DNA from: a virus
Taxonomy: Duplodnaviria > Caudoviricetes
IMG/VR virus record: IMGVR_UViG_2933279956_000001
Coordinates: 1 to 64,000 of that record
Reading direction: 5' to 3' (one strand)
DNA: 64,000 nucleotides
In this document: in pieces, positions 5,547-36,689 of the stretch
Layout of the letters: every line of letters begins with the position of its first letter
How positions within the stretch are numbered: position 1 is the first letter of the stretch
The notes under the pieces: model-generated
What the model was told of the DNA's origin: nothing
Seen by the model: the letters and a program-made list of their open reading frames with translations, nothing else
Database searches by the model: none
Made by a program: the position numbers and the translations under genes

Positions 5547-5849
5547 CTGGACGAACGTCATCGCCGCGGCGGCGATCGTCACCATGAGGCCGACGACGGT
5601 GATGATCAGTTTGGTGCGGTCGGCGAGCTGAGTCCGGGTGACGGCCTCGCGCTCCAGCTCGCCAATCCGCCTCTCCAGCGCCTCCCGCTCGGCGCGGTCC
5701 AGTTCGACCTGGCGGGCAAGCTCGGCATGCCGGTTGTCCACCTGATCAAGCCGCTGCAGGATCAGCGTGGTGGACCCGTTCGTGCGCTCGAACCCGACCT
5801 CCACCAGGCCACGCAGCTCCGCCAGGGCCAGGGCGAGGTTCTCATCCAC
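5532..5849 (-). CDS. Coiled-coil protein with C-terminal TM helix (lysis-cassette accessory)
   Basis: Heptad-like N-terminus and hydrophobic LIITVVGLMVTIAAAAMTF. Confidence 0.7.
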   Translation of the reverse strand: MDENLALALAELRGLVEVGFERTNGSTTLILQRLDQVDNRHAELARQVELDRAEREALERRIGELEREAVTRTQLADRTKLIITVVGLMVTIAAAAMTFVQLTRG

Positions 5850-6516
5850 CAGCCACCCCCCACGGCTTGCGGCCCGTCCACGTCGCCGGCGGCTTCATCG
5901 CGTACGCCGGGGTGACAGGGGCGGCCTGGTTGCTGCGGTAGTAGTCGACGGCCAGACGGCGCGCCTCAACGCGGGCGGGGTCGAGCCGGACCATCGTCCT
6001 GATCGGCTCCAGCGGGTCCGCGGGCGCGGTCACGTCCAAGCCGACGTAGTCGAGCACCCCCTGCCGGAACGCCTGGTTCTCGGGCAGCATCTGCACGCGG
6101 TGCTCCTTGACGGCAGCGATGCGGGCCCGGTGCGCGGCCAGCCGATCGCTGTCCGGGACGCCGGGCGTCCAGCACGTCGGCAGGCCGTGCGTCGCCTCCA
6201 GCTGCGCGGCCGCAGCCGGGTTCAGCCGGGCGAGAGCGTCGTCCGGGTCCGGGATCCACGGCTCGTGCAGGACGACGTCGAGCAACGTGTCGAGGTCCTC
6301 GGGGTCGATGCCGTACTCGGCGGCCCGCCACTCCCACGTGGAGTGCGGAATGATCAGCATGTGGGCGCCGCCGTCCGCGCGCACCGCGGCGACGCCCCAG
6401 ATGGGTTCGGCGCCGTCCGGCGCGGGATGCTGCTCGGCGTGCGCGCCGCCGGCTTGCAGCAGGCTCGTGTGGCTGTAGCCGAGTTCGGCGTCCCACAGGG
6501 TCCAGGTCTCCGCCAC
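5842..6516 (-). CDS. Tail-tip partner protein B (paralog of 9961-10434)
   Basis: IPHSTWEWRAAEYG..LDTLLDVVL..DPLEPIRTMVRLDPARV; directly follows tail-tip gene B. Confidence 0.7.
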   Translation of the reverse strand: MAETWTLWDAELGYSHTSLLQAGGAHAEQHPAPDGAEPIWGVAAVRADGGAHMLIIPHSTWEWRAAEYGIDPEDLDTLLDVVLHEPWIPDPDDALARLNPAAAAQLEATHGLPTCWTPGVPDSDRLAAHRARIAAVKEHRVQMLPENQAFRQGVLDYVGLDVTAPADPLEPIRTMVRLDPARVEARRLAVDYYRSNQAAPVTPAYAMKPPATWTGRKPWGVAGG

Positions 6517-6545
6517 CGGCGGTCTCCTCTCGAAAGGGGAAGGGG

Positions 6546-9329
6546 TCAGTGGCGGTGTGACCACCAGTAGAACGCCTTGCCGGACAGCACGCCGCCGCCC
6601 TGCGACCAGCCGATCGAGAAGCTCGACTGGCTGGACATGTCGAGCGCCCAGTAGAAGTTCGGGTTCGACGCGCCGTCGCGGACCACGCTGACCGGCCCCA
6701 TGTTGGAGGCCATGGTCGCGCCGTAGTGGATCGTGACCCCGACGAACCCGGACGCCACCGTCCCGGACCCCGCGTGCACGGTGTCGTACGGGTCGGCGCT
6801 GTTGGTGTCCCAGACGCGACCCCGCAGGTACCAGCGGCCGCTGGAGTTGCAATGGATGTAGGACTGCGAGGAGGAGAAGCCGTCGTTGTAGCCGAACTGG
6901 CCGTACCCCTCGGCGACGTCGAGGCCGCCGCCCTTGCGCGTCGACGACGACGGCTGCCGGATGCCGAGCCGTACCAGGCCAGCCGCGACCTGGAGTTCGG
7001 CCCGTGCTGACCCGGACTGGTTGGTGCCGGAGGTGATGAACGTTGTCGTCTCGCCCGGGTACCAGCCGTCTTCGGCGTAGAACCGGGTGTAGTTGGCGTT
7101 CCCGGCCGGGTAGAACCGCAGGTCCAACGTGCTGGAGTCGAGGACGAACCGCTGCCCGGTCGCCGCCGAGCGGACGATTGACCCGGTGATCGTCTTGCCG
7201 TTGATCGCATTGGCCGAGATGTGCGCGGCGGTGATCGCGTTCGCGGCGATCTTGTCGGCCGTGATGGCGTTCGCGCTGACGTGCGCCGCCTGGATAGCCC
7301 CTGCGATGATCTTGTCTGCAGTGATGGCGTTGGCCATGATGTGCCCGGCCTCGATCGCGAGCGCCCGGATCAGGCGGCCGGTGATCGTGTCGGCGGTGAT
7401 TTTCGCGTCGCCGGGGATGGTGCCGTCGATGATGTGGGTCGCGCCGTCGATGATCGCGCCGATGACGTCGGTGTCCACGAGCGGCTTCGTGGCCACGGTG
7501 ACGCGGACGGAACCGGCGGACTCGTTGCCGAGCCGGTCGGCGGCCGTGAGCCACACTTCGCGGTCGGCGTTGTACGGCTGGCCCGGGATCACCTCGACGC
7601 CGGCGCCGGTCAGGTAGCCGACGCGGGCGCCCGGGTCGCCGCCGTTGAGCGGGTCGCGCATGTAGACGTGGACGCGGTCAAAGTCGGCCGGCATCGGCTC
7701 GCCCGCGCTGCCGTTGCCGTCCCAGGCGACGTGGATGACGCCGAGCCGGGACGCCACGACCGGCGTCGAGGGTACGGGTGGCGGCACGGTGTCGTTCGGG
7801 ATCGTCACCGTCACCGCAGGCGAGGCAACACCCTTGACGCCTTCGTTCGTGGCTCGCACCCACAGCCGATACGTGGCCCCGGTGATGAGCGGGCTGTAGG
7901 TGACGTTCCGGTCGGTGGAGTCGGAGGTGACGATCACGAGCGGCTGCCCGGTCCCGGGCGGTGTCTGCGCGATCAGCTCGTAGCCGTCGACGCCGAGCGG
8001 CTGCCCGGCCACGTCCGTGGTCACGGGCGCCCACGTGGCGGTGATCTGCCCGCGCGGCCATCCGTGCTCGTCCAGGTAGACGTCGGGTTCGACGACGAGG
8101 CCGTCCGCGGCGGCCGGGACGCGGCCGGTGCCGTCCGAGCCGGGGTTGCTGCCGGACCCGCCCGAGCTGATGCCGCCGTTCAGGATGCCGTTCTGGGCGC
8201 GGGCCAGGCGGATGGTCCGCTCCAGGAAGCGGTCGTTGAGCACGAGGTTGCCGCCGAGGACCCCGTCTGCGGCGCACGACAGCGTGATCTGGCGGATGCG
8301 CAGGTCCTGCATGGCGGCGTTGTCGCCGGGGGCGAGCACGTGGTCGCCGGTCCGATAGTCGGCCAGCGGCAGCCAGCGGGCCGCCCCGAATACGAACTGG
8401 CGGGTGAGCTGGACGCGTTCGCGGGCGACGCGCTCCAGCGCATGCTGGCCGAGGAGCGTCGCAGTCCCGTGATCGGCGACGCCGCCCATCGACTGGAATG
8501 TCTCCCACCGGCCCCACGGGGCGGTCGCGGCCGGGTTGGTCACCTCGACGCGCAGGTTGTCCTCACCCGCGATCAAGATGACGGAGGAGGCGTCCTCCAG
8601 CGTCGCCTCGTCCGGGGCCTGGTCGACGTCACGCCCAAGCCGCAGATCCACCGGCGCAGGCCCGGCCGCGAACTGGCGGGCCAGCGCGGTGCCCTCGTTG
8701 AACGCCTGCAGGGTGCGGCCGGACATCTGCCAGTCGAGGACGCCCTGCTCGGCGAGGTTGATGAGGACGGCCTGCAGGTTGGCGCCGACGTCGAGCCCGA
8801 TCGTCAGCGTCTTGTTCCACGCTTGCCCGTCGCTGTCGTGCGTCGGCGTGAAGTCCACCATTAGGCCGGGCAGCGCCCCGCGCTCCTGCCCTTCCCCGAT
8901 GAACGCGGCCAGGATCGCGCCCGGGGTCGCGGCTGCGAACTGCCGCTTGCCGTCGACCAGGCCGCCCGTGCCCGCGTACAAGATCAGCTTGGTGAGCATC
9001 CACGCGTAGCCGGGCATCTGGTAGGCGCGGGCGGCGGACCGGTCGGTGTTCTCCCCCGACCGTTTGATCCGCAGGAAGCGCGCGTTCGCGGGCTCAACCC
9101 ACGCGTCGCCGGTCGAGTACTCCACCGCGACCTCGCACGGCGACTCCAACCAGGTCGCGCCCTGACCGAGCCTGCTGTAGGTCAGCCGCAGCGACGACAC
9201 GTCGTTCAACGGCAGGCCGGCCTCGAACCCGAGGTGCTGGCCTAGCACGCCGAGCCGGGCACCGTTGGGTTGGTAGGCGACCAGGCGCAGGCCGTACCGC
9301 AACGGCTCCCCCGGAATGATCACTTGCAC
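6546..9329 (-). CDS. Minor tail/tail-tip protein B (hub-like N-terminus, FN3-like domains, ITADKI repeats, variable C-terminus), 927 aa
   Basis: Position after tape measure/Dit-like genes; FN3-like YRLWVRATN; repeated ANAITADKI; paralog of 10431-13193. Confidence 0.85.
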   Translation of the reverse strand: MQVIIPGEPLRYGLRLVAYQPNGARLGVLGQHLGFEAGLPLNDVSSLRLTYSRLGQGATWLESPCEVAVEYSTGDAWVEPANARFLRIKRSGENTDRSAARAYQMPGYAWMLTKLILYAGTGGLVDGKRQFAAATPGAILAAFIGEGQERGALPGLMVDFTPTHDSDGQAWNKTLTIGLDVGANLQAVLINLAEQGVLDWQMSGRTLQAFNEGTALARQFAAGPAPVDLRLGRDVDQAPDEATLEDASSVILIAGEDNLRVEVTNPAATAPWGRWETFQSMGGVADHGTATLLGQHALERVARERVQLTRQFVFGAARWLPLADYRTGDHVLAPGDNAAMQDLRIRQITLSCAADGVLGGNLVLNDRFLERTIRLARAQNGILNGGISSGGSGSNPGSDGTGRVPAAADGLVVEPDVYLDEHGWPRGQITATWAPVTTDVAGQPLGVDGYELIAQTPPGTGQPLVIVTSDSTDRNVTYSPLITGATYRLWVRATNEGVKGVASPAVTVTIPNDTVPPPVPSTPVVASRLGVIHVAWDGNGSAGEPMPADFDRVHVYMRDPLNGGDPGARVGYLTGAGVEVIPGQPYNADREVWLTAADRLGNESAGSVRVTVATKPLVDTDVIGAIIDGATHIIDGTIPGDAKITADTITGRLIRALAIEAGHIMANAITADKIIAGAIQAAHVSANAITADKIAANAITAAHISANAINGKTITGSIVRSAATGQRFVLDSSTLDLRFYPAGNANYTRFYAEDGWYPGETTTFITSGTNQSGSARAELQVAAGLVRLGIRQPSSSTRKGGGLDVAEGYGQFGYNDGFSSSQSYIHCNSSGRWYLRGRVWDTNSADPYDTVHAGSGTVASGFVGVTIHYGATMASNMGPVSVVRDGASNPNFYWALDMSSQSSFSIGWSQGGGVLSGKAFYWWSHRH

Positions 9330-9413
9330 AGCTCGCCCCCAGGGTTGTCTTGATACTCAGACAGTGCTGCGCCGAATGCGCTGGAGCCTTACGGGAGGGG
9401 CGCGCGTCTAACG

Positions 9414-9938
9414 GTGAGCAGCGCCTTCCCCAGAGCCGAATGGGCGACGATGAACGACGAGCGTTCAGTGTTAGAGGACCTGTACCGCAACATTCAGCAG
9501 ATCGCCGAGTGGATCCGGTTCGCCGACGCCAAGGCGGGAGCCATCGTCGCGGTCAACGGCGTCATGATCGCTTTCTACGCTGGGCGCCTCGGCGGAAATC
9601 CCAGACCTTCTGCCATCGCCGTGGTGTCCACCTCGGCGGCTCTTGTTGTAGCGGCCTTCAGCGCGCTCCTAGCCGTGGTGACCGTTTCGCCGAGGGCCCG
9701 CCGCCTCGGGGCGAACTCCGCGATTCACTACGGCACCATCGCGGCGCACGCGTCGGCGGAGGCATTCCACCAGACCGTCATGACCGTGTACGCCGATGCA
9801 AAGCAACTGGACCGAGCGCTATCGACCGAGCTATGGATGCTGGCGCGGATCGCGGACCGCAAGTACATCTATGTGGTCTGGGCCATACGTGTATGGATCG
9901 CCGCCTTCCTCCTGGGCGTGGTCACCCTGCTGCTGTGA
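9414..9938 (+). CDS. Pycsar-type transmembrane effector (DUF5706/PycTM-like)
   Basis: WIRFADAKAG, TM-TM-SPR, IHYGTIA, LARIADRKY, final TM. Confidence 0.8.
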   Translation: MSSAFPRAEWATMNDERSVLEDLYRNIQQIAEWIRFADAKAGAIVAVNGVMIAFYAGRLGGNPRPSAIAVVSTSAALVVAAFSALLAVVTVSPRARRLGANSAIHYGTIAAHASAEAFHQTVMTVYADAKQLDRALSTELWMLARIADRKYIYVVWAIRVWIAAFLLGVVTLLL

Positions 9939-9960
9939 CCACAACCCAGCTGCCGCGTCA

Positions 9961-10434
9961 CTACGGTCGAAAGGTCCGTTCGTCCTGTGCCACGAGGAAG
10001 CGGTCGATCTCCATCCGCAGGGCCGCGACCCGCACCGGGTCGATCCGGGTGCTCTTCCGGATGGCGGCCAGCGGATCAACGGCACGCCGGCCGCGCGCCG
10101 CCGCCGCGGTGGTGACGAGTTCGCCGTAGCGTTCCTTGCACGCGGCGATCTGCCCGAGCAGCCGCTCGCGCGCCTGCCCGGCTTCGCCTTCGAGCAGGAC
10201 CTGGCCGTCCGCGTCACCGGCGGCCGCCATCCACGACAGCAGGGGCGCGTACAGCAGCGCGTCGATCGCCTCGTCGAGCGTCTGCAGGCCGTGTTCAGCC
10301 ATCCGGTGCTCGAACGCCTCCTTCGGGATGCTGGCCGCGAACGGTGTCGCGCCCCCGCTCTCGGGCTCGTAGTGGACGAGCCACGTCGTCGGCCCTTCCT
10401 CCACCCGGTCGATGCGCCAACTGCGAACGCTCAT
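9961..10434 (-). CDS. Tail-tip partner protein A
   Basis: IPKEAFEHRMAEHG..LDEAIDALL..DPLAAIRKSTRIDPVRV; ATG overlaps the stop of tail-tip gene A. Confidence 0.7.
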   Translation of the reverse strand: MSVRSWRIDRVEEGPTTWLVHYEPESGGATPFAASIPKEAFEHRMAEHGLQTLDEAIDALLYAPLLSWMAAAGDADGQVLLEGEAGQARERLLGQIAACKERYGELVTTAAAARGRRAVDPLAAIRKSTRIDPVRVAALRMEIDRFLVAQDERTFRP

Positions 10435-13193
10435 GCCACTCCGTGTTGTCTCCAGGCCCACACGTGCAGCGCGACGCTGAAGTTGGGCGGGCTGCCGATG
10501 CCGGACTCGTTAGAGCGGAGCGTGAACCCGGTCGAGACCGGGTTACGGATGTTGAAGCTCAGCCGCTCCGGGATCGGGTTGTCCGGCGTGATGACGACGC
10601 GGGGCGTGGACTGCAACGTGACGTTGAAGTTCACGAAGTACGTCGACGCGGCCGACTGGCCGATCTCGGGCAGCGACCGCATGAACATGACCAGCCCGGC
10701 CTGCGCCTCGTAGGTGAAGGTGCCGCGGAAGGAGGTGTAGCCGGTCGCCGAGCCGCCGCCGTTGTTGAACAGCCACCGGTTCAGGCGTCCGGCGATGTCG
10801 TTGTAGCCGACCTCCAGCCGGTCCGGCTGCGCGAACATGTAGCCGCCGCCGGCGAGGCCGTCGGAGGTCTGCACCATGTGCATGCGCCACTCGTCGCCCT
10901 TCTGGATCACCTCCGAGCGGCGGGTGCCGTCCGGGCTGGTGCCGGAGTAGAGGCGGATGGCGGCGTTGCTGTCGGTCCAGATGCGGGCGTGGTTCGTGCC
11001 GGAGCCCGGCATGAACCGGATCTCGGGGTCGGCCGCGCCAGCCGGGTTGATGATGATGCGGCGGCCGGTGAGCCCGGTGGCGAGCTGGCCGACGATGGAG
11101 ACCGCGCCGGACGCGGACGACACCAGCACCGTCTGCACGCCGGACCCGTTGTACGCCTCCAGCCCGGCCGTACTGAGTTCGACGCGGGCGCCCGTCGGCG
11201 TCCCTGCGACGAGGCGGGACACCAGCGTGAGGATCGCCTCCAGCTTGTCGGCCGTGATCGCGTTCGCCGAGATGTGGCTGGCTTGGACGGCTCCGGCGGA
11301 GATCTTCGCCGCGGTGACGGCGTTCGCGACGAGCGCGCCGGTGGTGATGGAGTTGTTCGCCGCGTCTCCGGCGACGAGCGGCACCGTCGCGATGGTGGCG
11401 GACGCGGAGCGCGGTGAGGCGTTGCCGCTGCGGTCGACGGCGGTGAAGGAGAAGTCGCGGTCGACGCCGTACGGCAGGCCGGGGACAACGATGGAGCCTG
11501 CCGCCAGCAGGTAGCCGATCTCCTGCCAGCCGGGCGCGAGCGGGTCCTGCATCCACACGAGGACCCGGTCGAGGTCGGACGGCATCGGGGAGGCTCCCAC
11601 GCCGAGGCCGTCCCAGGTGACGTGCACGACCCCGAGCCGGGTGGCCAGCGCGGGCGCGGTCGGCGTGGGCGGCGCCGTGGTGTCGTCCGGCACCGTCACC
11701 GCCACCGAGGAGGAGAACGGGCCGCGTGCGCCGAGGTTGATGGCGCGCACCTTGAACTGGTACTGCTCGCCGATCACCAGCGGGGAGAACGTCGCGTTGA
11801 CGTCCCCGGCCTGCGTGAGCGCGACGAGGAACCACGGCTGCCCGACCTCGTTGACGCGCATGAACAGCTCGTAGCCGCCCACGGTGAGCGCGACGCCGTT
11901 CACGTCCGCCGTCACCGCGCCCCACGATGCCGTCACCTGACCGCGCGGGAACCCGGCCTCGTCGATGTAGGCGACCGGGTCCACGATCAGCCCGGCCGGA
12001 GCCGCTGGCGTGCGCGGTGCCGGGGCCTCCGGTGCTGGCCTCGCTCCGGACCCTCCGTCAGCGGTGCTGCCTCCGACGATGCCCGCGGTACGGCGGGCCA
12101 GCCGCAGGTCGCGTTCGAGGAGGCGGTCGTTGAGGACGAGGTTGCCGCCGACGACGCGGTGCTCGTCGAGCGTGACCGTCATCTGCCTGATCCTCAGGGA
12201 CTCCATGGCCCCGGCCTCGCCGGGGGCGAAGATGCGGTCTCCGGGCCGGTAGTCCCTCCACGGGAACCACCTGCTGTCCGCAGTGACCAAGATCCCTCGG
12301 GTGCGTTGGACACGTTCCCGATCACCGCGCGCTAGGACGGACGCTGCGAGGAGTTGAGCGGTCCCGGAGTCAGAGACACCCCCCTGACCCACGTACGTCT
12401 CCCAGGGCCCCCACGGACCGTGATTGCTGGTGGAGACGGTGATCTGGAACCCGCCCTCACCCCGAACGAGGACCCTGGACGCCCGGTCCTCCAGCGTCCC
12501 GGTCTCAGGGGCCTCCACCACGTCGCGGCCGTACCGAAGGTCCACCGGAGCTGGGCCCGTCGCGAGGTCGCGCCCGAGCTGGGTGTCGGCGTTGAACAGC
12601 TGGACCGTCCGGCCGGTCGTGCGGAAGTCGAGCACGGCCTGCTCGGCGAGGTTGATGAGCACCTTGAGAGCGTCGATGCCGAGCTCGTAGTAGATCGTGA
12701 GGATCTTGGCCCACGCCTGCCCTGCGGAGTCGTGCGTCGGCGTGAAGTCCCACGTGATGCCCGGCGCGACTCCCCGCGCTTGGGCCTCCTGGAGGAACGT
12801 CTGCATGATCGCGCCCGGCGTCGCCGACAGGAACGCTCGCTTGCCGTCCACGAGCGGCGCCGGGCCCGGGTACAGGACGACCTTGGACAGCTGCCAGATC
12901 CAGCCCGGCATCTCGTACGCCGACACCGCGGCGCGGTCAACGCCGTCGGCACGGCGCTTGATCCGCAGGAACCGGCCGTCCGGCGGCTCCGTCCAGACGA
13001 GTCCGTCGCTGCTCCACTCGATCGCGATCTCGCACGGCTGCGCCAGCTGGGCCGCGCCGGTCGAGCGGCCGCTGTAGGACAGCTTCAGCGCGGGCACGTC
13101 ATCGAGCGGCTGCCCGATCTCCGCCTTGAGCGGGTTCGGCAGAACACCCAGCCTCACCCCGTTCGGGGCGTACGCAACGAGACGGAGGTCCAC
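10431..13193 (-). CDS. Minor tail/tail-tip protein A, 920 aa
   Basis: LRLVAYAPNG start, FN3-like YQFKVRAIN, SANAITADKL repeats; GGAGGT RBS. Confidence 0.85.
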   Translation of the reverse strand: MDLRLVAYAPNGVRLGVLPNPLKAEIGQPLDDVPALKLSYSGRSTGAAQLAQPCEIAIEWSSDGLVWTEPPDGRFLRIKRRADGVDRAAVSAYEMPGWIWQLSKVVLYPGPAPLVDGKRAFLSATPGAIMQTFLQEAQARGVAPGITWDFTPTHDSAGQAWAKILTIYYELGIDALKVLINLAEQAVLDFRTTGRTVQLFNADTQLGRDLATGPAPVDLRYGRDVVEAPETGTLEDRASRVLVRGEGGFQITVSTSNHGPWGPWETYVGQGGVSDSGTAQLLAASVLARGDRERVQRTRGILVTADSRWFPWRDYRPGDRIFAPGEAGAMESLRIRQMTVTLDEHRVVGGNLVLNDRLLERDLRLARRTAGIVGGSTADGGSGARPAPEAPAPRTPAAPAGLIVDPVAYIDEAGFPRGQVTASWGAVTADVNGVALTVGGYELFMRVNEVGQPWFLVALTQAGDVNATFSPLVIGEQYQFKVRAINLGARGPFSSSVAVTVPDDTTAPPTPTAPALATRLGVVHVTWDGLGVGASPMPSDLDRVLVWMQDPLAPGWQEIGYLLAAGSIVVPGLPYGVDRDFSFTAVDRSGNASPRSASATIATVPLVAGDAANNSITTGALVANAVTAAKISAGAVQASHISANAITADKLEAILTLVSRLVAGTPTGARVELSTAGLEAYNGSGVQTVLVSSASGAVSIVGQLATGLTGRRIIINPAGAADPEIRFMPGSGTNHARIWTDSNAAIRLYSGTSPDGTRRSEVIQKGDEWRMHMVQTSDGLAGGGYMFAQPDRLEVGYNDIAGRLNRWLFNNGGGSATGYTSFRGTFTYEAQAGLVMFMRSLPEIGQSAASTYFVNFNVTLQSTPRVVITPDNPIPERLSFNIRNPVSTGFTLRSNESGIGSPPNFSVALHVWAWRQHGVA

Positions 13194-13231
13194 TTCACCT
13201 CCAACTCCACCGCGCGAGAGGGGTCAGGCAG

Positions 13232-13780
13232 TCAGCCCAGGGCGATGATCGGGTACTTGCTGTACGACTGCCACAACCCAGGCGAGCCGAGGCGAAGCAC
13301 CGCGGGCGGTTCGCCGACCGACATGCTGATGTAGCTGGCGGGGTTGAAGATGAAGGGCCCGACCTGAGGGCCTGGGTTGTACAGCTTCACGTGGCTGTCG
13401 GACACGCCAGCGACCGAGACATACACCATCACCTTGCGCAGCTCGTCCGAGGCGGCGATCGGCGCCGGGAAGTGCGCGTTGTGCCAGCCCGCGATCGGCA
13501 TCGCATCCGAGGGGTTGGTGATGCCGATCGGCAGCATCGAGCCACTGGCCGACTGGTAGACCGCCGCGGTGAAGGTGCCCGTGGTGGTAGGCGTCCCCCG
13601 CAGGGCGATCGAGACGCCGATACAGGATCGGCCAGGCGGGATGTACAGCGGCATCGCATAGGCCAGGTGCACGTCTCCGGGTGGGGTGATCACCTCGTCG
13701 TTGATGAGGTAGGTGGGGATGCTCTGGGTGATCCCGTACTGGCCGGGCCCAGTGTGCTCGAAATGCCGGTGCGGGGGCAC
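13232..13780 (-). CDS. Beta-rich protein in tail region (start uncertain)
   Basis: Protein-like composition, same strand as tail genes; frame stays open upstream to ~13825. Confidence 0.55.
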   Translation of the reverse strand: MPPHRHFEHTGPGQYGITQSIPTYLINDEVITPPGDVHLAYAMPLYIPPGRSCIGVSIALRGTPTTTGTFTAAVYQSASGSMLPIGITNPSDAMPIAGWHNAHFPAPIAASDELRKVMVYVSVAGVSDSHVKLYNPGPQVGPFIFNPASYISMSVGEPPAVLRLGSPGLWQSYSKYPIIALG

Positions 13781-14109
13781 CTCGGCCGCGTCGGACAGGG
13801 CGAGGTCGGCGTTGATCGTTGATTCCCTTCATCGGTGGGAGAGTCGGCGCGGATCCCGCCGTCAGCGGGTGAGGCGGAACAGGCACATGGGCCTGTCTGA
13901 CGGTCTGGGCGGGCAATCCGGAGAGCAAGTTCAAGATTTTTCCGTGACACAAACCAGCATCGAAAATGTGTCAGAGAGAGGCAGTGACCAGCCAATGTCT
14001 TTAAACAGACGTTGAACGCATGGAGCCCTCGGGCGGGTTTCCCTCTCACGCGACGAACGCGATGCGAGTATTCTTTGTCTCACCATCTAGCGAAAGGCGG
14101 CGATCGCGC

Positions 14110-14217
14110 ATGCGCGCGTTAGACCCGAACAACGGGCGGGGGGAGCAGCGGCTCCTGGCCGTCAAGATCCTGGTGATCTTCACCGAGTGGATCATCCGGC
14201 ATTGGCCGTTCACCTGA
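14110..14217 (+). CDS. 35-aa hydrophobic peptide (MRALDPNNGRGEQRLLAVKILVIFTEWIIRHWPFT)
   Basis: GAAAGG upstream; followed by hairpin 14255-14297. Confidence 0.45.
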   Translation: MRALDPNNGRGEQRLLAVKILVIFTEWIIRHWPFT

Positions 14218-14386
14218 CCACATAAGGCCAGGTGAGGACCACAACCTCAACATCCGAGACCCCCCGTTCACGCTTGCAGGCAGGGCGGGGGTTCTCGCTG
14301 TCTCGTCTCCAGCTTAGCAACTTCGCCTGCTTTGCGAAATTAACATCTCGAACGATATCCGCAAAGCTAGTGGCAGAGATAAATAT

Positions 14387-14538
14387 CTAGCGGTAGTCAA
14401 ACCGGAAAGTAGTAACTGCGGCTAGCAATTCGCGGAAGCTTGATATCAGTAGTGGAAATCTAGATTTTGACTAGCGTTGTGATATCCCTGGAGAACTTGC
14501 TACGGCTAGTAAGACGTGGAAGTACTAACTACCGCTAG
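14387..14538. repeat. Degenerate ~150-bp palindrome, AT- and CTAG-rich
   Basis: Nested inverted pairs centred on AAATCTAGATTT (14456-14467). Confidence 0.7.
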
Positions 14539-14571
14539 TTGTTGCATCCGGCTCGACTGCATCGCCGCAGG

Positions 14572-15450
14572 TCACAGGTAGGCACGGCGTCCGCGGATCT
14601 CCAGCTTCGACGCCGCGGTGGTCGACGTCGCCGAGCTGGTGACCAGCACCACGCGGGAGAACGGGTCGCCGACGCCGATCGTCGGGGTCAGGTGCAGCCA
14701 CCGGAAAGCCGACCCGGGGCCGGTCGCCTGGATGTCGCCGGTCACGTCGACCACGTCCGGGCCGGGCGTCAGGTCCCACGTGTCGATGGTCGCCTTCGAC
14801 GCGCGCATGGCCGCGCAGTCGATGAGGAGCCGCTCGCCGGCGAGGAGGCCGGACGGGCGGCGGATGGTGGCGCCGGTGGCCACGTCGACCACGGTGGGGT
14901 TCACGGCCGGGCCGGTGATGCGCAGGAGCGCGTCGGTGATGGGGCCGGTCGCTCCGGCGAAGGTGGTGACGGGCTGGCTCGCGCCGTTCGCTGATCCCTC
15001 CCACGTGGACGGGATCGGGTCGCGCCAGAAGACGCCAGGGATCTTCACCACGGCGGTGAAGCGCGCCCTGGCCGGGCCGGGGTCGAGCTCGATCTCGGAG
15101 GTGGTCTCCACGGTGACGTCGGCGACGCGGACGATCGACCCGGTCGTGTAGGTGAGCGTCATGAGCCGGTGGCGGACGCCGAACACGGCGGCGAGCGCTT
15201 CCAGGTTGGTCTCCAGCTGTTCGACGCCGCCGTTGGAGCCGTCCGGGCGGATGCCGTACGCGCCGACGACGATGGGGAGCGTGGTGGCCTCCAGGTCGAG
15301 GCCGTGCACGGGGATCTCGCCGGAGCGGCCGGGCACCTTGAGCGAGACGGCGCGGACGCCCGGGAGCGGCCGTCGCTTGGTGCCGACCTTGGCTCGCCAG
15401 CAGCCTGCTGGGTGGTCAAGCGGTACTCCGTCGAGCGTGTACGTCGGCAT
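14572..15450 (-). CDS. Distal tail (Dit-like) protein
   Basis: First same-strand gene after the tape-measure genes; VPGRSGEI, IPGVFWRD, ITGPAVNP, ends RRAYL. Confidence 0.75.
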   Translation of the reverse strand: MPTYTLDGVPLDHPAGCWRAKVGTKRRPLPGVRAVSLKVPGRSGEIPVHGLDLEATTLPIVVGAYGIRPDGSNGGVEQLETNLEALAAVFGVRHRLMTLTYTTGSIVRVADVTVETTSEIELDPGPARARFTAVVKIPGVFWRDPIPSTWEGSANGASQPVTTFAGATGPITDALLRITGPAVNPTVVDVATGATIRRPSGLLAGERLLIDCAAMRASKATIDTWDLTPGPDVVDVTGDIQATGPGSAFRWLHLTPTIGVGDPFSRVVLVTSSATSTTAASKLEIRGRRAYL

Positions 15451-15709: not shown

Positions 15710-16009
15710 ATGCGTACGACGTGGAAGGTAGCCGCTGCTGCTGTCACCGTCGCGGCCGGGATCGGCCTGGCGGGTCTGCCTGCCGCGGCAAGCACCTCGA
15801 TGGGGTACTTGCCGAGCTGCGCGAAGGTCAAGCACACGACGGGCATCACGTCCCAGACGGTCAAGGTCACCAACAACTGCTCCTACGGCGTCGCGTGGTA
15901 CGTCGACAAGGAAGGGCCGAACAGCGTCTGCTTCTACACCGGTCCGGGCCGGTGGCAGAGCCACAAGTGGCGCAAGATCGATGCCTACCACGGCACGTTC
16001 ACCTGCTAA
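15710..16009 (+). CDS. Secreted 4-Cys protein, tendamistat (alpha-amylase inhibitor)-like spacing
   Basis: AGGAGG RBS, Sec signal peptide, LPSC..NNC..VCFYTGPG..C-terminal C. Confidence 0.65.
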   Translation: MRTTWKVAAAAVTVAAGIGLAGLPAAASTSMGYLPSCAKVKHTTGITSQTVKVTNNCSYGVAWYVDKEGPNSVCFYTGPGRWQSHKWRKIDAYHGTFTC

Positions 16010-16029
16010 GACGTGCCCGTGGCCGACGG

Positions 16030-18333
16030 TTACAGGACACCCAGCATCCCGGCATAGGCCAGCCCGCGGTTGACGGTGTCGGAGGTGGGCTCGGCGACCG
16101 GGTTGATCGCGGTGACGTGCACGGTCACCGCTCCCCCGGTACGGCTCCCGCCGCCGGTGACCGTTCGGCCGGTGGTGGCCAGGTTCGCCGACAGCTCGGG
16201 CGTGAACGCACGGCCGAGCTGTCCGGCGATCGACCGGGCCGCCGTCAGTACGGCGCGGGTCTGGCCAAGCATGCCGTCGCGCATGCCCAGCATCGTGTTG
16301 GCGCCGATCGCGGCGAACAGCGTGGACGGGGAGCGGATGCCGAGCGCCTGCCTCACCCAGTCCGGCATGATCGAGGAGAAGAAGGTGTAGAGGGTGTCGC
16401 GGAACCAGCCGGCCGCTGACGCGATCCCGTTCCACAGCCCTTGCAGCAGCTGGACGCCGAGCTGGCCGACGATGAGCAGGAACTCGCCGATGCCGCGGGC
16501 CGCAACCGCGATGGCGCCGGGGAGATCGCCGCGCAGGAGGCGGGCCGCGCCGTCAAGGAGCTGGATCAGCGGCGGCAGCAGCGACGTCGTCAGCTGAACC
16601 AGCGGCGGCAGAACGGGCAGGATTACCGGGAGCAGGTCGGCGAAGCTCTTGACCATGGACAGCAGGTGCGGGGCCGCGTCCCGCAGCCCAACCAGGAGGG
16701 CCTGGCCGATCTGCCCGGCCACCTGACCGACGAGCACGATCACCGGCCCCAAGATCGGGACCAGCCCAGTGACCAGGTGCGCGATCAGCAGCGCCAGCTG
16801 CGGAAGCAGCGGAGCCAGCGCAGGAACCAACTGGTTGACCACGGTCACACCGAGGCTGGCCAGCAGCGGGATCACCGGCTGCAGCGCGAGCAGCGCCTGA
16901 CCGAAGGAGACGACCAGCAGCTGCAGCGACGGCAGCGCCGCCTGCACCCCGGCAGCGATCGCGCCTGCGATCAGCGCGGCAACCTGGCCGAGCACCGGCA
17001 GCAGCGGGGCCGCCGCAACGAAGATCGCCGACACGGCTCCGCCGAGCAGATGCAGCGCGGGCGCGGCCACCTCGACCGCGCGCCGTACCCCCTCGAAGAT
17101 GGCGGAGATTCCCGGGTAGAGCGCAGCCAGCGCGGGCACCAGGCCTTGCACAGCGGTCGTCAAGATCGGCCCGACCTGGACGGCCAGCGCGCCGATGAGC
17201 GGGGCCAGCACCCCGACGCCCTCCGCGACAGCCACCAGGACGGGCGCGAGCGCGGACGCCGCGTCCCCCATCGCGACGAACATCGCGGTGAGCGTCCGCT
17301 GGCCGCCTGCCGAGTTCACCCACGCGTTGATCCGGTCCAGGATCAGGCCGAGGACGCCGAGCGCGTCGCCGCCAGCCGCGCGCATCGCAGCGAACACCCC
17401 AGACGCGATCCCCCACAGGTCGACGGCAGCCGTCGCGAGCTGGCGCAGCACGGTGACGGCGCCCTGCATCCAGGCGAGCGCGCGCCCCGACTCGGCGGCC
17501 GCGGTGAGGAAGTCACCGAACCGCGCCGCCGCCGCGGCGATCTGCGGGACGAGTCCGGCGCTGAACTGCGCGCCGACCGCAGCGATGCGGGCCAGCCCGG
17601 CCAGCAGCGGATCGATCGCCACCGCCGCGGCGTCGATGGCCGCGCGCAGCGACCCGAAGACGACCGCGAGGGTGGAGACGGCGACCTGGGAGCGGCCGAA
17701 CGCGGCCACCCGGGAGACGGAACGACCGATCGCGTCCGCGACCCCGGCCATGCCGGAGGTGACCGGCCCGGCCAGCACCGCGGCCAGCATGCTGAGCTGC
17801 CCGGCCAGGGGTGCGAACAGCGCCTCCTGCACGGTCACCCGAATGCCGTCCAGGAGCGGCTTCAGGACGCGCAGTTCCCGCGCCACCGCCTGCGCGGCCG
17901 GGGACAGCCGGGCGACCGCTTCCTCGAACTTGGCGGCGTCGTCACCGAGGGCCGCGGAGAACGCGTCGCTGACGCCGTACAGGGCGACCGCGAGCGTGCC
18001 CGCCCCGACAGCGGCGAGCGCCAGCAGGCCCGGCATGGCCGCGACCGCGCCCAGCGCGGGTGCGAGCGCCGCCCCGAGCGACAGCAGCGCGTTCCCTACG
18101 CCGGCCGCCGCAGCGCCGAGGACCGCCACCCGGGCGGCGGCCGCGACGATGCCGACGCCGAACTGAAGCAGCTGTCCGGCCGTCGCGCGGGCGCTGGCTC
18201 CGATCGAGCGGGCGTCCCGGTCGAAGCCGATCGCGGCCAGACGCGACGACGTGGTCGCCTGCGTGAGCGCGCGGATGAACTGCCGGTCCCGCAGGTCGAT
18301 GGAGATGAACAGCTCTCCGACGTTGATCGCCAC
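16030..18333 (-). CDS. Tape measure protein 2 (767 aa)
   Basis: MAINVGEL start, Ala/Leu/Gly helical repeats with periodic Pro, LGIRSPSTLF motif. Confidence 0.85.
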   Translation of the reverse strand: MAINVGELFISIDLRDRQFIRALTQATTSSRLAAIGFDRDARSIGASARATAGQLLQFGVGIVAAAARVAVLGAAAAGVGNALLSLGAALAPALGAVAAMPGLLALAAVGAGTLAVALYGVSDAFSAALGDDAAKFEEAVARLSPAAQAVARELRVLKPLLDGIRVTVQEALFAPLAGQLSMLAAVLAGPVTSGMAGVADAIGRSVSRVAAFGRSQVAVSTLAVVFGSLRAAIDAAAVAIDPLLAGLARIAAVGAQFSAGLVPQIAAAAARFGDFLTAAAESGRALAWMQGAVTVLRQLATAAVDLWGIASGVFAAMRAAGGDALGVLGLILDRINAWVNSAGGQRTLTAMFVAMGDAASALAPVLVAVAEGVGVLAPLIGALAVQVGPILTTAVQGLVPALAALYPGISAIFEGVRRAVEVAAPALHLLGGAVSAIFVAAAPLLPVLGQVAALIAGAIAAGVQAALPSLQLLVVSFGQALLALQPVIPLLASLGVTVVNQLVPALAPLLPQLALLIAHLVTGLVPILGPVIVLVGQVAGQIGQALLVGLRDAAPHLLSMVKSFADLLPVILPVLPPLVQLTTSLLPPLIQLLDGAARLLRGDLPGAIAVAARGIGEFLLIVGQLGVQLLQGLWNGIASAAGWFRDTLYTFFSSIMPDWVRQALGIRSPSTLFAAIGANTMLGMRDGMLGQTRAVLTAARSIAGQLGRAFTPELSANLATTGRTVTGGGSRTGGAVTVHVTAINPVAEPTSDTVNRGLAYAGMLGVL

Positions 18334-18381
18334 CGGCCCTCCCCTCCGAGGGTTGAACCGGCGTGTCGACGCCCTGGCGAG

Positions 18382-20433
18382 CTAGACCAGGCCGAGAACG
18401 GATGCGAACTGCAGGCCCTTGTTCGTCGCGGTGCTCGTGGACTCGGCGACCGGGTAGTAGTTCGTCTGGTGGATCACCGTCTGCGGGCCCGTCCGCGGTG
18501 CGCTCGCCTGCGGGACGGCGACCTTGGCGCCGAACGTGGCACCACCCATCGACCCCGCGAGCCCTCCAGCGGTTCCGGCGAGCATCTGCGCGGCCTGCTG
18601 GGCGGGGCTGTAGCCGCTCATCGCCGAATGCATGGAGTGGCGCAGCGTGCCGGTGAGCCGCTCGGCAACCGACTTCACGGACCCTTCCTGCGACAGCAGG
18701 CCCTGCACCCAGCCGCGGACGGTGTCGACGCCGAGGGCGGCCATGAGCGTGGACGGGGACCGGATGCCGAGCAGGTCCTTGATCCACTTGATGAAGCCGG
18801 TGAACAGGCCCCCGACGGTGGAAGTGAAGGAGTTCCACGCGTTGACGAAGCCGTTCTTGATGCCGTTGACCAGGTCCGTGCCGAGGGACCAGAGCTTCTT
18901 GAACGCGCCGGTGATCGTGTTGCCGAAGGCGACGACACCCGACTTGATCGTGTCGAACGCGCCCTTGAAGTCGCCCGTCAGGAGCTTGGCCAGGGCGGTG
19001 ACGACGCTGATGACCAGCGGCAGGATGGCCGTGCTGAGCTGAACCAGGGGCGGCAGAAACGGCGTCACCGCGCCCACGACCTTGGCGAAGATCGTCGCCA
19101 GGAGCGTCAGGATGGGCGACAAGGCCTTGATCAGTTGCAGGATCGGCGGCAGCAATGCCTGCCCCAGCTGCCCAAAAACCGGAAGAATGGGCGTCAAAGC
19201 ACCCAAAACGATGGACACGGCTTGGACGAGTGCGCCGCCCAGCGCGGCCGCGATCTGCCCGACGATCGGCAGCAGCGGAGCAAGCGCCGGAAGAAGCGCG
19301 CTGGCCAGCGTGCCGACCAGTTGGGCGATCGGCGGCAGCAGCGGAAGCAGCGCGACGATCAACTGCCCGAACGCGCCAGCGATCTGCCCGACCACCGGCG
19401 TGAGCTGCGACAGCACCGGCTGCAGCGCCGTCGTGATCGTCTGCGCGACCTGCACCAGCACCGGCAGAAAGGCCGACGCCAGCGTGCCCGCGAGCTGCAG
19501 AATCGGCGGCAGAAGCGGAATGATCGCAGCGACAATCCGCGCGAAGCTCATGATCAGCTGGCCGAGCACCGGCGAGATCCGCAGCAACGCCGGACCCAGC
19601 TGAGCCGCCAGCGTCTGGGCGATCAGCGTGAGCCCGGCGAACAGCGGCCCGGCCAGCGATCCCGCCACCTGGACCAGCACCCCGAGCAGCGGCCCGAGCG
19701 CTTGAAGAACGCCACCGATCCCGGTCACCAGCGTGGCCAGCAGCCCGCTGTTGGCACCCAGCGCGGCCGACACCGGCGCGAGAAATCCGGCCAGCTGCCC
19801 ACCGAACTGGCCGAGGCTGCCAGCGAGCGCGCCCAGCAGCGGCGTCACCGCCCCGACGAGCCCCGACACCGCAGGCAGAATCGGCTGCAGAAACGCACTC
19901 AACCCTGTCGTGAACTGCGCAAACAGGGGCACCATCTGCGTGAACATGCCTTGCAGCGCCGGAGCCAGCTGCGAGGAGAAGATGCTCTTCAACGAGCCGG
20001 CCGCCGCGATCAGTGGCCCCTGGAAAACCGACGCGGCGTTCGCCAGGTCGGCCTTCACCGACGACGACAAGTCCGCGAACGCGGCCTTCACCGCAGGCGC
20101 GGTCGCGGCGGCCTTGATGCCGATGATGCCGATGCCGACGACAGCCGCCGCGGCCGCCGCCGCGATCATGCCTCCGGCCGCGACACCGGCCGCGCCGACG
20201 CCCGCCAGCAGTGCGCCGCTCTTCGCCCCGGCGGCCGCGAGCGCCATTCCGGCGCGTGCCCCGGCCGAGACGACCGTGGCCGCCATCCGGGTCGCGGCCA
20301 TCCCCGCGCCGATCATGGCCGCGTGGATGCCGGTGGCGTGCACCCGGATTCCGGCGACGGCCCGCCCGAACGGGCCGGACATCTGGTCGCGGAAGTCGAG
20401 CGTCGCGTATAGCTCGCCCACGTTGATGCCCAC
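18382..20433 (-). CDS. Tape measure protein 1 (683 aa)
   Basis: MGINVGEL start, LLPPI-type repeats, LGIRSPSTLM; follows the tail chaperones. Confidence 0.9.
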   Translation of the reverse strand: MGINVGELYATLDFRDQMSGPFGRAVAGIRVHATGIHAAMIGAGMAATRMAATVVSAGARAGMALAAAGAKSGALLAGVGAAGVAAGGMIAAAAAAAVVGIGIIGIKAAATAPAVKAAFADLSSSVKADLANAASVFQGPLIAAAGSLKSIFSSQLAPALQGMFTQMVPLFAQFTTGLSAFLQPILPAVSGLVGAVTPLLGALAGSLGQFGGQLAGFLAPVSAALGANSGLLATLVTGIGGVLQALGPLLGVLVQVAGSLAGPLFAGLTLIAQTLAAQLGPALLRISPVLGQLIMSFARIVAAIIPLLPPILQLAGTLASAFLPVLVQVAQTITTALQPVLSQLTPVVGQIAGAFGQLIVALLPLLPPIAQLVGTLASALLPALAPLLPIVGQIAAALGGALVQAVSIVLGALTPILPVFGQLGQALLPPILQLIKALSPILTLLATIFAKVVGAVTPFLPPLVQLSTAILPLVISVVTALAKLLTGDFKGAFDTIKSGVVAFGNTITGAFKKLWSLGTDLVNGIKNGFVNAWNSFTSTVGGLFTGFIKWIKDLLGIRSPSTLMAALGVDTVRGWVQGLLSQEGSVKSVAERLTGTLRHSMHSAMSGYSPAQQAAQMLAGTAGGLAGSMGGATFGAKVAVPQASAPRTGPQTVIHQTNYYPVAESTSTATNKGLQFASVLGLV

Positions 20434-20452
20434 CCCGGCCCCCTTCAGCTGG

Positions 20453-21099: not shown

Positions 21100-21102
21100 G
21101 GG

Positions 21103-36664: not shown

Positions 36665-36689
36665 GCCACCCCCTTTCCGAAGGAGTGAT

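What the first reader, a model, noticed from the sequence alone, without database searches (positions are those of the whole stretch)
5842..20433. Dual-tail prophage: duplicated tape-measure and tail-tip modules on a single tube/Dit set
Seen: two complete tape-measure ORFs and two complete ~920-aa tail-tip ORFs, each tip followed by its own paralogous partner gene, but only one tube, chaperone pair and Dit-like gene. All six duplicated ORFs are well diverged yet unbroken, which argues for selection on both copies. Established: siphoviruses normally have one tape-measure gene that sets tail length and docks on the tip hub. Inference: one genome builds two or more virion types differing in tail length and receptor. 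This would be host-range bet-hedging; no reverse transcriptase or adjacent invertase is visible. This is the best candidate for an undescribed system here.
Basis: partly seen in the sequence, partly recalled or inferred. Interest (0 to 1): 0.85.

Follow-up and report, generated by a model that had tools for sequence, protein, structure and literature searches.

The report
Prophage with doubled rulers and tips
A prophage of soil actinomycetes carries two intact tail-length ruler genes and two intact tail-tip genes beside a single tail tube, an arrangement kept in many related prophages, so one phage may build more than one kind of tail.

Summary
On the minus strand lie two complete tape-measure (TMP) genes (683 and 767 aa). 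Downstream lie two ~920-aa tip genes, 44% identical, each followed by a small paralogous partner gene. The record has only one tube, one chaperone and one Dit gene.

It is not an artefact or decay. 28 of 43 sources (window plus 42 related loci, nearly all Streptosporangiaceae) have both tips intact, and 13 also have both TMPs intact. Close-pair dN/dS is 0.19-0.47 for all four genes.

The modelled tip has a lambda gpJ / T5 pb3 / Tal-type hub, two FN3 domains and a beta-rich C-terminal domain. Each partner co-varies with the C-terminal domain of its own tip (rho 0.93 and 0.79) and not with the other tip. These are two independently swapped host-recognition cassettes.

The two rulers' lengths are not matched (683/767 here, 1148/761 in L007), which argues against their sharing one tail.

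My best reading, untested, is that alternative tips and rulers give mixed progeny without a genetic switch. I found no description of tandem TMP genes or double hub genes in print. Interest is moderate to high.

The parts
21103..21570 (-). major tail (tube) protein, single copy
   Evidence: phrog_3884 E 1.3e-47; one place in the record
20623..21099 (-). tail assembly chaperone (G), single copy. An overlapping ORF at 20453-20992 lies in the -1 frame and is read as the T extension (inferred).
   Evidence: phrog_3860 E 2.4e-31 and Pfam DUF7426 E 1.9e-45; one place in the record; the -1 frame follows from the coordinates
18382..20433 (-). tape measure protein 1 (683 aa), slot 1
   Evidence: PHROG TMP families; own GAAGGGGG ribosome site; slot-1 TMPs form one clade, 13 of 13 plus the single TMP of L046, support 100
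16030..18333 (-). tape measure protein 2 (767 aa), slot 2
   Evidence: PHROG TMP families; own GGAGGGGAGGG ribosome site; clade 2a of the TMP tree
15710..16009 (+). small opposite-strand ORF (99 aa) in the insert between TMP2 and Dit; whether it is a gene is uncertain
   Evidence: high third-position GC. The minus frame continuing from TMP2 has 4 stops. No family hit.
14572..15450 (-). distal tail protein (Dit)-like, single copy
   Evidence: phrog_33 E 6.8e-6; one place in the record; 44-73% identical homologues in 38 of 42 related loci in the same position
13232..14571 (-). variable insert between Dit and tipA: a 182-aa ORF (13232-13780) of no known family, plus about 740 b of low-GC DNA with no coding signal (13830-14570)
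   Evidence: frame plot; no family hit; weak homologues of the ORF in L008, L010, L016 and L029
10431..13193 (-). tip A: hub (Tal/gpJ-like, residues 1-370), two FN3 domains (400-605), a low-confidence linker, and a beta-rich C-terminal domain (660-915)
   Evidence: AlphaFold2 mean pLDDT 79.9. Foldseek: lambda gpJ 8k35_A E 7.3e-16, T5 pb3 7zhj_b, Mu gp44 1wru, 80alpha 6v8i_AE. Slot-1 clade support 99.
9961..10461 (-). partner A (166 aa), co-varies with the C-terminal domain of tip A
   Evidence: Spearman rho 0.93 with the tipA C-terminal domain, 0.57 with its hub, 0.22 with the tipB C-terminal domain
9414..9938 (+). opposite-strand insert: PycTM-like two-TM effector (174 aa), not part of the tail
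   Evidence: Pfam PF18967 E 5e-13, 49.8 bits against a cut-off of 27.2; PADLOC PycTM E 1.2e-21; no cyclase in the record
6546..9329 (-). tip B: the same hub and FN3 plan as tip A, a longer fibre stretch with 20-aa repeats, and a different C-terminal domain
   Evidence: 44% identical to tipA over 853 aa; 60-nt repeats at 7181-7399; slot-2 group in the tree
5842..6564 (-). partner B (240 aa by the first GTG), co-varies with the C-terminal domain of tip B
   Evidence: rho 0.79 with the tipB C-terminal domain, 0.15 with its hub, 0.02 with the tipA C-terminal domain. AlphaFold2 pLDDT 87.3, pTM 0.81. No PDB or BFVD match at E <= 0.001.

Best explanation
This is the tail module of a temperate siphophage lineage of Streptosporangiaceae (Nonomuraea and relatives).

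Shown:
- The module holds two tandem host-recognition cassettes. Each is a Tal/gpJ-type hub-plus-fibre protein whose C-terminal domain is exchanged together with a small downstream partner gene.
- In a sub-lineage that includes the window, it also holds two tandem complete tape-measure genes.
- All of these genes are kept by purifying selection.

Inferred:
- Both tips carry a complete hub domain. In single-tip relatives that domain belongs to the only tip protein after Dit. There is one Dit and no other baseplate gene.
- So a hub trimer of tip A or of tip B most likely nucleates its own tail on the shared Dit, chaperone and tube.
- One burst would then hold a mix of A-tipped and B-tipped virions, with no invertase or reverse transcriptase needed.
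- Where two rulers are present, either can be loaded, because both keep the same N- and C-terminal motifs. Tails would then come in two lengths.
- By the 1.5 Å per residue rule, which I recall and did not compute, the window's phage would give about 102 and 115 nm. The L007/L009 phages would give about 172 and 114 nm.
- Ruler and tip are not paired one to one.
- The partner is most likely a folding chaperone or distal adaptor for its own tip's receptor-binding domain.
For: Conservation of the tips:
- 28 of 43 sources have two intact tips of at least 850 aa.
- All 28 slot-1 tips fall in one clade of 29 rows (support 99). All 28 slot-2 tips fall in one group of 31 rows (support 84).

Conservation of the TMPs:
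- 13 sources have two intact TMPs. All 13 slot-1 TMPs fall in one clade (support 100).

Selection (NG86 dN/dS over six close pairs):
- TMP slot 1: 0.24-0.35
- TMP slot 2: 0.20-0.40
- tip slot 1: 0.21-0.47
- tip slot 2: 0.19-0.46
- Dit: 0.10-0.27

Hub fold of tipA: lambda gpJ, T1, T5 pb3, Mu gp44, 80alpha Tal, mycobacteriophage Douge and VgrG.

Single-copy states exist:
- Eight single-tip relatives (L033, L037, L038, L040, L041, L042, L044, L046) have only Dit, one tip and, in 7 of 8, a partner-like gene (none found in L044).
- L046 has one slot-1-type TMP and one slot-2-type tip. So each type can apparently stand alone.

Cassette behaviour (25 loci, 300 pairs):
- partnerA against tipA C-terminal domain: rho 0.93
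- partnerB against tipB C-terminal domain: rho 0.79
- tipA against tipB C-terminal domains: rho 0.19

Ruler lengths, slot 1 / slot 2:
- window 683/767
- L029 684/808
- L011 660/694
- L008 928/760
- L007 1148/761
- L009 1147/761
- seven loci 638-666/732-734
The ratio runs from 0.85 to 1.5. That is hard to fit with two rulers lying in register in one tube.

Other points:
- Each of the six genes has its own start and purine-rich ribosome site.
- There is one Dit, one tube and one chaperone.
- Precedent for a mixed burst of virions with two Tal forms: Tuc2009/TP901-1 (passage of PMC6115969).
Against: - There are no virion data of any kind. No phage of this lineage is among the deposited phages, and no RNA run was found.
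- Both tips are kept in almost all members of the lineage: 28 intact doubles against one clean loss (L046) and one broken slot-1 tip (L043). That pattern would fit an obligatory composite tip at least as well as two optional alternatives.
- The hub fold was modelled for tipA only. For tipB it rests on homology.
- Correlations over pairs of related loci are not independent observations.
- dS is compressed by about 92% GC at third positions, so dN/dS values are rough, though all are below 1.
- Prophage genes can stay intact for some time without being used.
Confidence: 0.5

Rival explanations
1. Composite tip: every virion carries both tip proteins. This could be as a mixed hub trimer, or with one hub-like domain docked elsewhere on the tip complex. 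The phage would then display two receptor-binding domains at once, as many phages with two receptor-binding proteins do.
For: - Co-retention is near universal: 28 sources have both tips intact, against one clean loss and one broken copy.
- The hubs of the two slots co-vary (rho 0.68).
- Both are under similar purifying selection.
- Mixed trimers are known for the related VgrG hub. This is recalled, not tested here.
Against: - Both proteins carry the whole hub. Single-tip relatives need nothing else after Dit.
- There is only one Dit and no adaptor gene.
- The stretches after the FN3 domains differ by insertions of about 12 and about 30 residues and then diverge. That makes a mixed trimeric fibre awkward.
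- L046 keeps only one tip type.
Confidence: 0.25
2. Only one member of each pair builds the tail at a given time, or the second copies have another role. For example, TMP1 could be an accessory ejected protein that helps cross the envelope or evades a ruler-targeting exclusion system. One tip cassette could be a spare held for recombination, or expressed under other conditions.
For: - The slot between chaperone and TMP takes foreign inserts. Single-TMP relatives hold a methyltransferase-like ORF there. So TMP1 may have arrived as an insert.
- Slot-2 TMPs are of two different clades, which suggests replacement.
- The cluster is cut by inserts, one on the opposite strand right before tipB. These could uncouple expression of the modules.
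Against: - TMP1-type proteins stand as the only TMP in L046 and in L053 (G040), so they are real rulers.
- Both TMPs keep the N- and C-terminal motifs shared by the single TMPs.
- No promoter or terminator signal above shuffled expectation was found between the genes.
- All copies are under purifying selection.
Confidence: 0.17
3. The two rulers form a mixed trimer in every tail, so there is one tail type as far as length goes.
For: - The conserved N- and C-terminal motifs are the same in both.
- The genes are adjacent, 36-137 nt apart, in all 13 loci.
Against: Lengths are not matched. Slot 1 ranges from 638 to 1148 aa and slot 2 from 694 to 808 aa, and the sign of the difference flips between loci. 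No globular Pfam domain explains the extra length of the long TMP1s.
Confidence: 0.06
4. Assembly artefact, or redundant copies in decay.
For: - The only sequencing run that holds the region is probably its own source.
- A few related loci are decayed: L013, L014, L023, L043, L045, L047 and L048.
Against: - The same gene order occurs in independent genomes, several of them complete chromosomes.
- A second assembler's contig of 30,106 b spans 5500-21500 with 0 differences. It uses the same data, so this is weak support.
- Copies are only 29-44% identical.
- dN/dS is well below 1.
Confidence: 0.02

Closest known systems
Lambda gpJ / T5 pb3 / Tal-type tail-tip hub proteins of siphophages
   Same: Hub fold at the N-terminus followed by FN3 domains and a distal part. 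The gene sits after TMP and Dit.
   Different: Here there are two paralogous hub-plus-fibre genes in tandem on one Dit. All 14 deposited phage records with a detectable relative of this hub have one place only.
Tuc2009 / TP901-1 Tal: full-length and truncated Tal give a mixed virion population
   Same: One genome and one burst give two kinds of tail tip, read as infection bet-hedging (passage in PMC6115969; the original paper was seen only as a title in a reference list).
   Different: There, one gene gives two forms by proteolysis. Here there are two separate genes with different C-terminal domains and their own partner genes. Nothing has been shown at the particle level.
Mu G segment / P1 C segment: alternative fibre C-terminus plus chaperone cassettes (recalled)
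   Same: Two alternative cassettes, each made of a fibre C-terminal part and a small downstream gene that travels with it. The co-variation was measured here.
   Different: No invertase and no flanking inverted repeats. Both genes are complete and co-oriented, so both can be expressed at once. The partners match no known chaperone family.
Diversity-generating retroelements of phage BPP-1 (recalled)
   Same: A way for one phage genome to offer more than one receptor specificity.
   Different: No reverse transcriptase in the record and no template/variable repeat pair.
Tape measure proteins as single-copy tail rulers (lambda gpH, TP901-1 TMP; PMC5099701 seen in a search listing only)
   Same: Both genes hit TMP profiles, lie between chaperone and Dit, and share terminal motifs.
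   Different: Two complete genes in tandem with unmatched lengths, conserved in 13 genomes. No report was found in four searches aimed at this.

Membership tests
Tape measure protein | Similarity to TMP sequence profiles | tested here: met
   TMP1 hits 22 PHROG families, best phrog_58 at E 8.6e-26. TMP2 hits 13, best phrog_6090 at E 8e-61. tblastn hits lie under annotated TMP genes of actinophages.
Tape measure protein | Gene sits between the tail chaperone and Dit | tested here: met
   The order is tube, chaperone, TMP1, TMP2, Dit.
Tape measure protein | Protein length sets tail length | not testable with these tools
   Needs EM of particles. Only the predicted lengths can be given.
Tape measure protein | One gene per genome (the usual state, not a formal criterion) | tested here: not met
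   Two complete genes in the window and in 12 related loci.
Tal / gpJ / gp27-like tail-tip hub | Hub fold | tested here: met
   The tipA model matches 8k35_A (E 7.3e-16), 9l9p_S, 7zhj_b, 1wru (TM-score on target 0.66), 3cdd_C, 6v8i_AE and 8zdo_s. For tipB the fold is inferred from homology over the hub.
Tal / gpJ / gp27-like tail-tip hub | Gene follows Dit | tested here: met
   tipA follows Dit, directly so in L028, L026 and L027. In 7 of 8 single-tip loci the tip starts within about 180 b of the Dit stop; the exception is L037, with a gap of about 1.2 kb. tipB follows partnerA.
Tal / gpJ / gp27-like tail-tip hub | A trimer closes the tube under the Dit hexamer | not testable with these tools
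Distal tail protein (Dit) | Similarity to Dit profiles, and position | tested here: inconclusive
   phrog_33 at E 6.8e-6 only, with no Pfam hit. The position and conservation fit.
Tail fibre plus assembly chaperone cassette (Mu S/U, T4 gp37/gp38, lambda stf/tfa type) | The fibre C-terminus and the downstream gene are exchanged together | tested here: met
   rho 0.93 and 0.79 with the partner's own tip C-terminal domain; 0.22 and 0.02 with the other tip's.
Tail fibre plus assembly chaperone cassette (Mu S/U, T4 gp37/gp38, lambda stf/tfa type) | Partner belongs to a known chaperone family or fold | tested here: not met
   No hit in Pfam, PHROGs or PADLOC. None of the listed PDB or BFVD matches reaches E <= 0.001, despite a confident model. 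No usable Atlas hit.
Invertase-switched fibre cassettes | Serine invertase and flanking inverted repeats | tested here: not met
   PF00239 gives 0 matches in the record, while the control rings in 12 of 14 genomes. The inverted repeats found are short and 70-88% complementary.
Diversity-generating retroelement | Reverse transcriptase and a template/variable repeat pair | tested here: not met
   PF00078 gives 0 matches in the record. There is no near-identical direct repeat.
Pycsar (for the insert at 9414-9938 only) | A cyclase next to the effector | tested here: not met
   The effector profile is met. PF00211 gives 0 matches in the 103.8-kb record. Other cyclase families were not searched.

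The most novel reading that the evidence does not exclude
One prophage genome is built to release, from every burst and without any DNA switch, up to four classes of virion: two tail rulers times two hub-fibre tips, all assembled on one shared Dit, chaperone and tube. This would be constitutive structural bet-hedging in both receptor choice and tail length or envelope passage. The arrangement has been kept across a family of actinomycete prophages.
Probability: 0.3. Interest if true: 0.8.

Novelty: new variant of a known kind. Interest (0 to 1): 0.62.

Why it matters
The tape measure is treated as a one-gene ruler and the Tal/gpJ hub as the single plug of a siphophage tail.

A lineage that keeps two complete rulers of unmatched length and two complete hubs under selection raises an open assembly question. 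How does a tail initiator choose among alternative parts, and can one genome make a mixed burst without a switch?

The question is directly testable. Several hosts are cultured strains with complete genomes. The L007/L009-type phages predict two tail lengths about 60 nm apart, which ordinary negative-stain EM can resolve.

The co-varying pair of tip C-terminal domain and partner also defines a new, unannotated host-range cassette. The partner has a confidently predicted fold with no significant match in the PDB or BFVD searches.

Tried and rejected
- Read-through fusion of TMP1 and TMP2. In the window a single stop separates them in the same frame. Only 6 of 13 loci have the two genes in one frame, so I dropped the idea.
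- The ~235-aa ORF before the TMP of single-TMP relatives as a remnant of TMP1. It has no similarity to any TMP (best E 0.31). It looks like a C5 DNA methyltransferase: motifs seen by eye, and Pfam PF00145 at E 4e-4, below the cut-off.
- Pairing of each TMP with one tip. The TMP1 C-terminal 120 aa co-vary with the slot-2 hub (rho 0.74) a little more than with the slot-1 hub (0.61). TMP2, Dit and the slot-1 hub co-vary at 0.78-0.82. With 13 related loci, and with adjacency explaining the second set, this is inconclusive.
- L046 TMP as a TMP1/TMP2 chimera. It aligns end to end with the long TMP1s of L007-L009, so I rejected this.
- Partner function. There was no family, fold or Atlas match.
- Tip C-terminal domains against PDB sequences. 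tipA gave only weak hits (E about 0.01) to choline-binding autolysin repeats. tipB gave none. I did not use these.
- Promoter and terminator scan. It found 1 promoter-like and 3 terminator-like sites, no more than in shuffles.
- Wider sampling anchored on TMP1. A family-level search gave 3 of 401 genomes with a match. Of the three, G001 holds L009 and another (G189, fetched as L052) is identical to L011.
- Expression. No RNA holder is listed.
- Reads. The one DNA run is probably the source of the record. Its contig spans the region unchanged, which is not independent support.
- Supplementary files of papers were not consulted.


Full report
**What is there**

The window is the first 64 kb of a 103,804-base IMG/VR virus record. 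It has about 70% GC.

A prophage lies on the minus strand:
- integrase at 40896-42017 and terminase at 33203-34495
- ORFs whose positions and order I read as portal (27351-28910) and major capsid (24339-25253); these two names rest on no family search here
- tail terminator at 21641-22093
- tube at 21103-21570
- tail chaperone at 20623-21099, with an ORF in the -1 frame

A third-position GC frame plot and profile searches give the map of the finding:
- TMP1, 18382-20433, 683 aa
- TMP2, 16030-18333, 767 aa
- Dit-like gene, 14572-15450
- tipA, 10431-13193, 920 aa
- partnerA, 9961-10461
- tipB, 6546-9329, 927 aa
- partnerB, 5842-6564
- then the lysis genes, with the endolysin at 4133-5092

The two TMPs are 29% identical over about 500 aa (E 2e-34) and share N- and C-terminal motifs. 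The two tips are 44% identical over 853 aa. The partners are weak paralogues.

The record holds one Dit, one tube and one chaperone and no further tip or TMP. Each gene has its own start codon and purine-rich ribosome site.

**Not an artefact, not decay**

One relative came from viral contigs (L007). A scan of genome contigs with an alignment of four tips gave 41 more loci (L008-L048). Nearly all are Streptosporangiaceae: Nonomuraea, Planomonospora, Microbispora, Streptosporangium, Sphaerisporangium and others. L044 is from Pseudonocardiaceae, and no family is given for L037 (Allonocardiopsis).

A tblastn map and ORF calls show the following.

| State | Sources |
|---|---|
| Two intact tips (at least 850 aa each) | 28 of 43 (window plus 42 loci) |
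| ...of these, two intact TMPs | 13: window, L007, L008, L009, L011, L012, L020, L025, L028, L029, L030, L035, L039 |
| ...of these, one intact TMP | 10: L015, L017, L018, L019, L021, L022, L026, L027, L031, L032 |
| ...of these, TMP region cut off, fragmented or displaced | 5: L010, L013, L023, L024, L036 |
| One TMP, tips incomplete in the locus | L016 (its second tip appears to lie in L034, at the other end of the same contig); L043 (slot-1 tip in two ORFs) |
| One tip right after Dit | 8: L033, L037, L038, L040, L041, L042, L044, L046 |
| Remnants | L014, L045, L047, L048 |

Between close pairs, NG86 dN/dS is 0.24-0.35 for TMP slot 1 and 0.20-0.40 for TMP slot 2. It is 0.21-0.47 for tip slot 1, 0.19-0.46 for tip slot 2 and 0.10-0.27 for Dit. 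Across all nine pairs and seven genes the highest value is 0.86.

There are no near-identical repeats. The copies are old.

**History**

On the hub domain, all 28 slot-1 tips form a clade of 29 rows (support 99). All 28 slot-2 tips lie in one group of 31 rows (support 84). Fragments under 850 aa were left out of this tree. So the tip duplication predates the spread of this lineage, and both copies have been inherited together.

On the TMPs (41 rows of at least 600 aa, fragments left out), all 13 slot-1 TMPs plus the single TMP of L046 form one clade (support 100). Slot-2 TMPs fall in two clades. Ten single TMPs form their own clade. So a slot-1 TMP was added in front of, or kept beside, two different kinds of second TMP.

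In single-TMP relatives the same slot holds a methyltransferase-like ORF.

L046 has one slot-1-type TMP and one slot-2-type tip. L053 has a slot-1-like TMP as its only TMP, in an unrelated tail.

**What the proteins are**

An AlphaFold2 model of tipA (67-sequence alignment, mean pLDDT 79.9) has four parts:
- a hub, residues 1-370
- two FN3 domains, residues 400-605
- a poorly predicted linker
- a beta-rich C-terminal domain, residues 660-915

Foldseek places the hub with lambda gpJ (8k35_A, E 7.3e-16), T1, T5 pb3, DT57C, Mu gp44, the 80alpha and Douge baseplates, and VgrG. Both tips are therefore Tal/gpJ-type plugs of the tube with a fibre attached.

Among deposited phages, 14 records have a detectable relative of this hub, and each has one place only.

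The partner model is confident (pLDDT 87.3, pTM 0.81). It has no match at E <= 0.001 in the PDB or BFVD and no family hit.

**Two independent cassettes**

I took pairwise identities over 25 loci (300 pairs).

| Compared | Spearman rho |
|---|---|
| partnerA against tipA C-terminal domain | 0.93 |
| partnerA against tipA hub | 0.57 |
| partnerA against tipB C-terminal domain | 0.22 |
| partnerB against tipB C-terminal domain | 0.79 |
| partnerB against tipB hub | 0.15 |
| partnerB against tipA C-terminal domain | 0.02 |
| tipA against tipB C-terminal domains | 0.19 |

Each C-terminal domain travels with its own partner, and the two cassettes are exchanged independently. This is the behaviour of fibre-tip plus chaperone cassettes. 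The pairs are not independent data points, but the contrast is large.

**How it most likely works**

Shown: there are two functional-looking hub-fibre genes and, here, two functional-looking rulers, with one Dit, one chaperone and one tube. There is no reverse transcriptase, no serine invertase and no repeat pair.

Inferred:
- In single-tip relatives the hub protein is the only gene between Dit and the partner. So each paralogue should be able to plug the same Dit.
- The stretches after the FN3 domains differ by insertions. This favours homotrimers.
- Mixed bursts of A-tipped and B-tipped particles are then the simplest outcome.
- The rulers share end motifs, but their lengths are not matched.

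| Locus | Slot 1 / slot 2 TMP length (aa) |
|---|---|
| window | 683 / 767 |
| L029 | 684 / 808 |
| L011 | 660 / 694 |
| L008 | 928 / 760 |
| L007 | 1148 / 761 |
| L009 | 1147 / 761 |
| seven loci | 638-666 / 732-734 |

That speaks against both rulers lying in one tube and for alternative rulers.

A precedent for mixed tips from one genome exists in Tuc2009/TP901-1, where it arises by proteolysis of one Tal (PMC6115969, passage).

I put 0.5 on this reading and 0.25 on a composite tip carried by every particle. The rest goes to conditional or accessory use, mixed ruler trimers, or decay.

**Is it known**

Four full-text searches for two, second, tandem or duplicated tape measure genes and for two tail lengths gave no report. 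The hits concerned chaperone pairs, repeats inside one TMP, or unrelated fields (passages read). One search for two Tal or hub genes also gave none. A further search was used to find the Tuc2009/TP901-1 literature.

The library lacks most subscription journals, and supplements were closed. So this is "not found", not "not in print".

I rate it a new variant of a known kind: ordinary siphophage parts in an unusual, conserved and testable arrangement.

**Limits**

- No RNA data exist.
- The hub fold was modelled for tipA only.
- The 1.5 Å per residue rule and the Mu, P1, BPP-1 and VgrG comparisons are recalled, not tested.

Noticed in passing
window 9414-9938 (+): An opposite-strand 174-aa ORF sits between partnerA and tipB. 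It matches the Pycsar effector PycTM: Pfam PF18967 at E 5e-13, above the cut-off, and PADLOC PycTM at E 1.2e-21. No class III cyclase (PF00211) is found anywhere in the 103.8-kb record. It is a lone defence-type effector carried inside a tail operon.
   Followed up: partly
window 13194-14571: A variable slot between Dit and tipA. It holds a 182-aa ORF of no known family (13232-13780) plus about 740 b of low-GC DNA with no coding signal (13830-14570). In L007 the same slot holds two opposite-strand ORFs, and in L010 it holds about 8 kb of other DNA. In L028 Dit abuts tipA directly.
   Followed up: partly
window 15451-16029: A 580-b insert between TMP2 and Dit that is absent in L009. Its third-position GC signal fits a plus-strand 99-aa ORF (15710-16009) of no known family.
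   Followed up: partly
L015, L017, L018, L022, L027 (for example L017:4956-5663): In single-TMP relatives a ~235-aa ORF sits between chaperone and TMP, exactly where TMP1 sits in double-TMP phages. It has C5 DNA methyltransferase motifs seen by eye. The Pfam PF00145 hit is below the cut-off (E 4e-4).
   Followed up: partly
window 29960-31309 and 32337-32999 (-): Two ORFs between terminase and portal share a ~230-aa domain (29% identity, E 1e-7) and the same C-terminal ending. Neither has a Pfam family. This is an odd place for a duplicated gene.
   Followed up: partly
L016 and L034: These two loci are the two ends of one 95,680-b Planomonospora contig. The tail module appears to run from one end into the other, which suggests a circular or permuted element. 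L029 is labelled as an unlocalised plasmid contig.
   Followed up: no
window 35558-36937 (-): A 459-aa ORF upstream of the terminase combines P-loop/ABC-type ATPase hits with a GNAT acetyltransferase domain (Pfam E 2e-8 and 5e-6).
   Followed up: no
window 7181-7399: Three tandem 60-nt units (20-aa repeats) in the fibre stretch of tipB, with one related unit in tipA at 11234-11332.
   Followed up: no
window 877-1863 (+): An ATP-dependent DNA ligase (Pfam E 9e-37 and 6.5e-32) lies just beyond the lysis end of the prophage. Whether it belongs to the phage or the host is not known.
   Followed up: no
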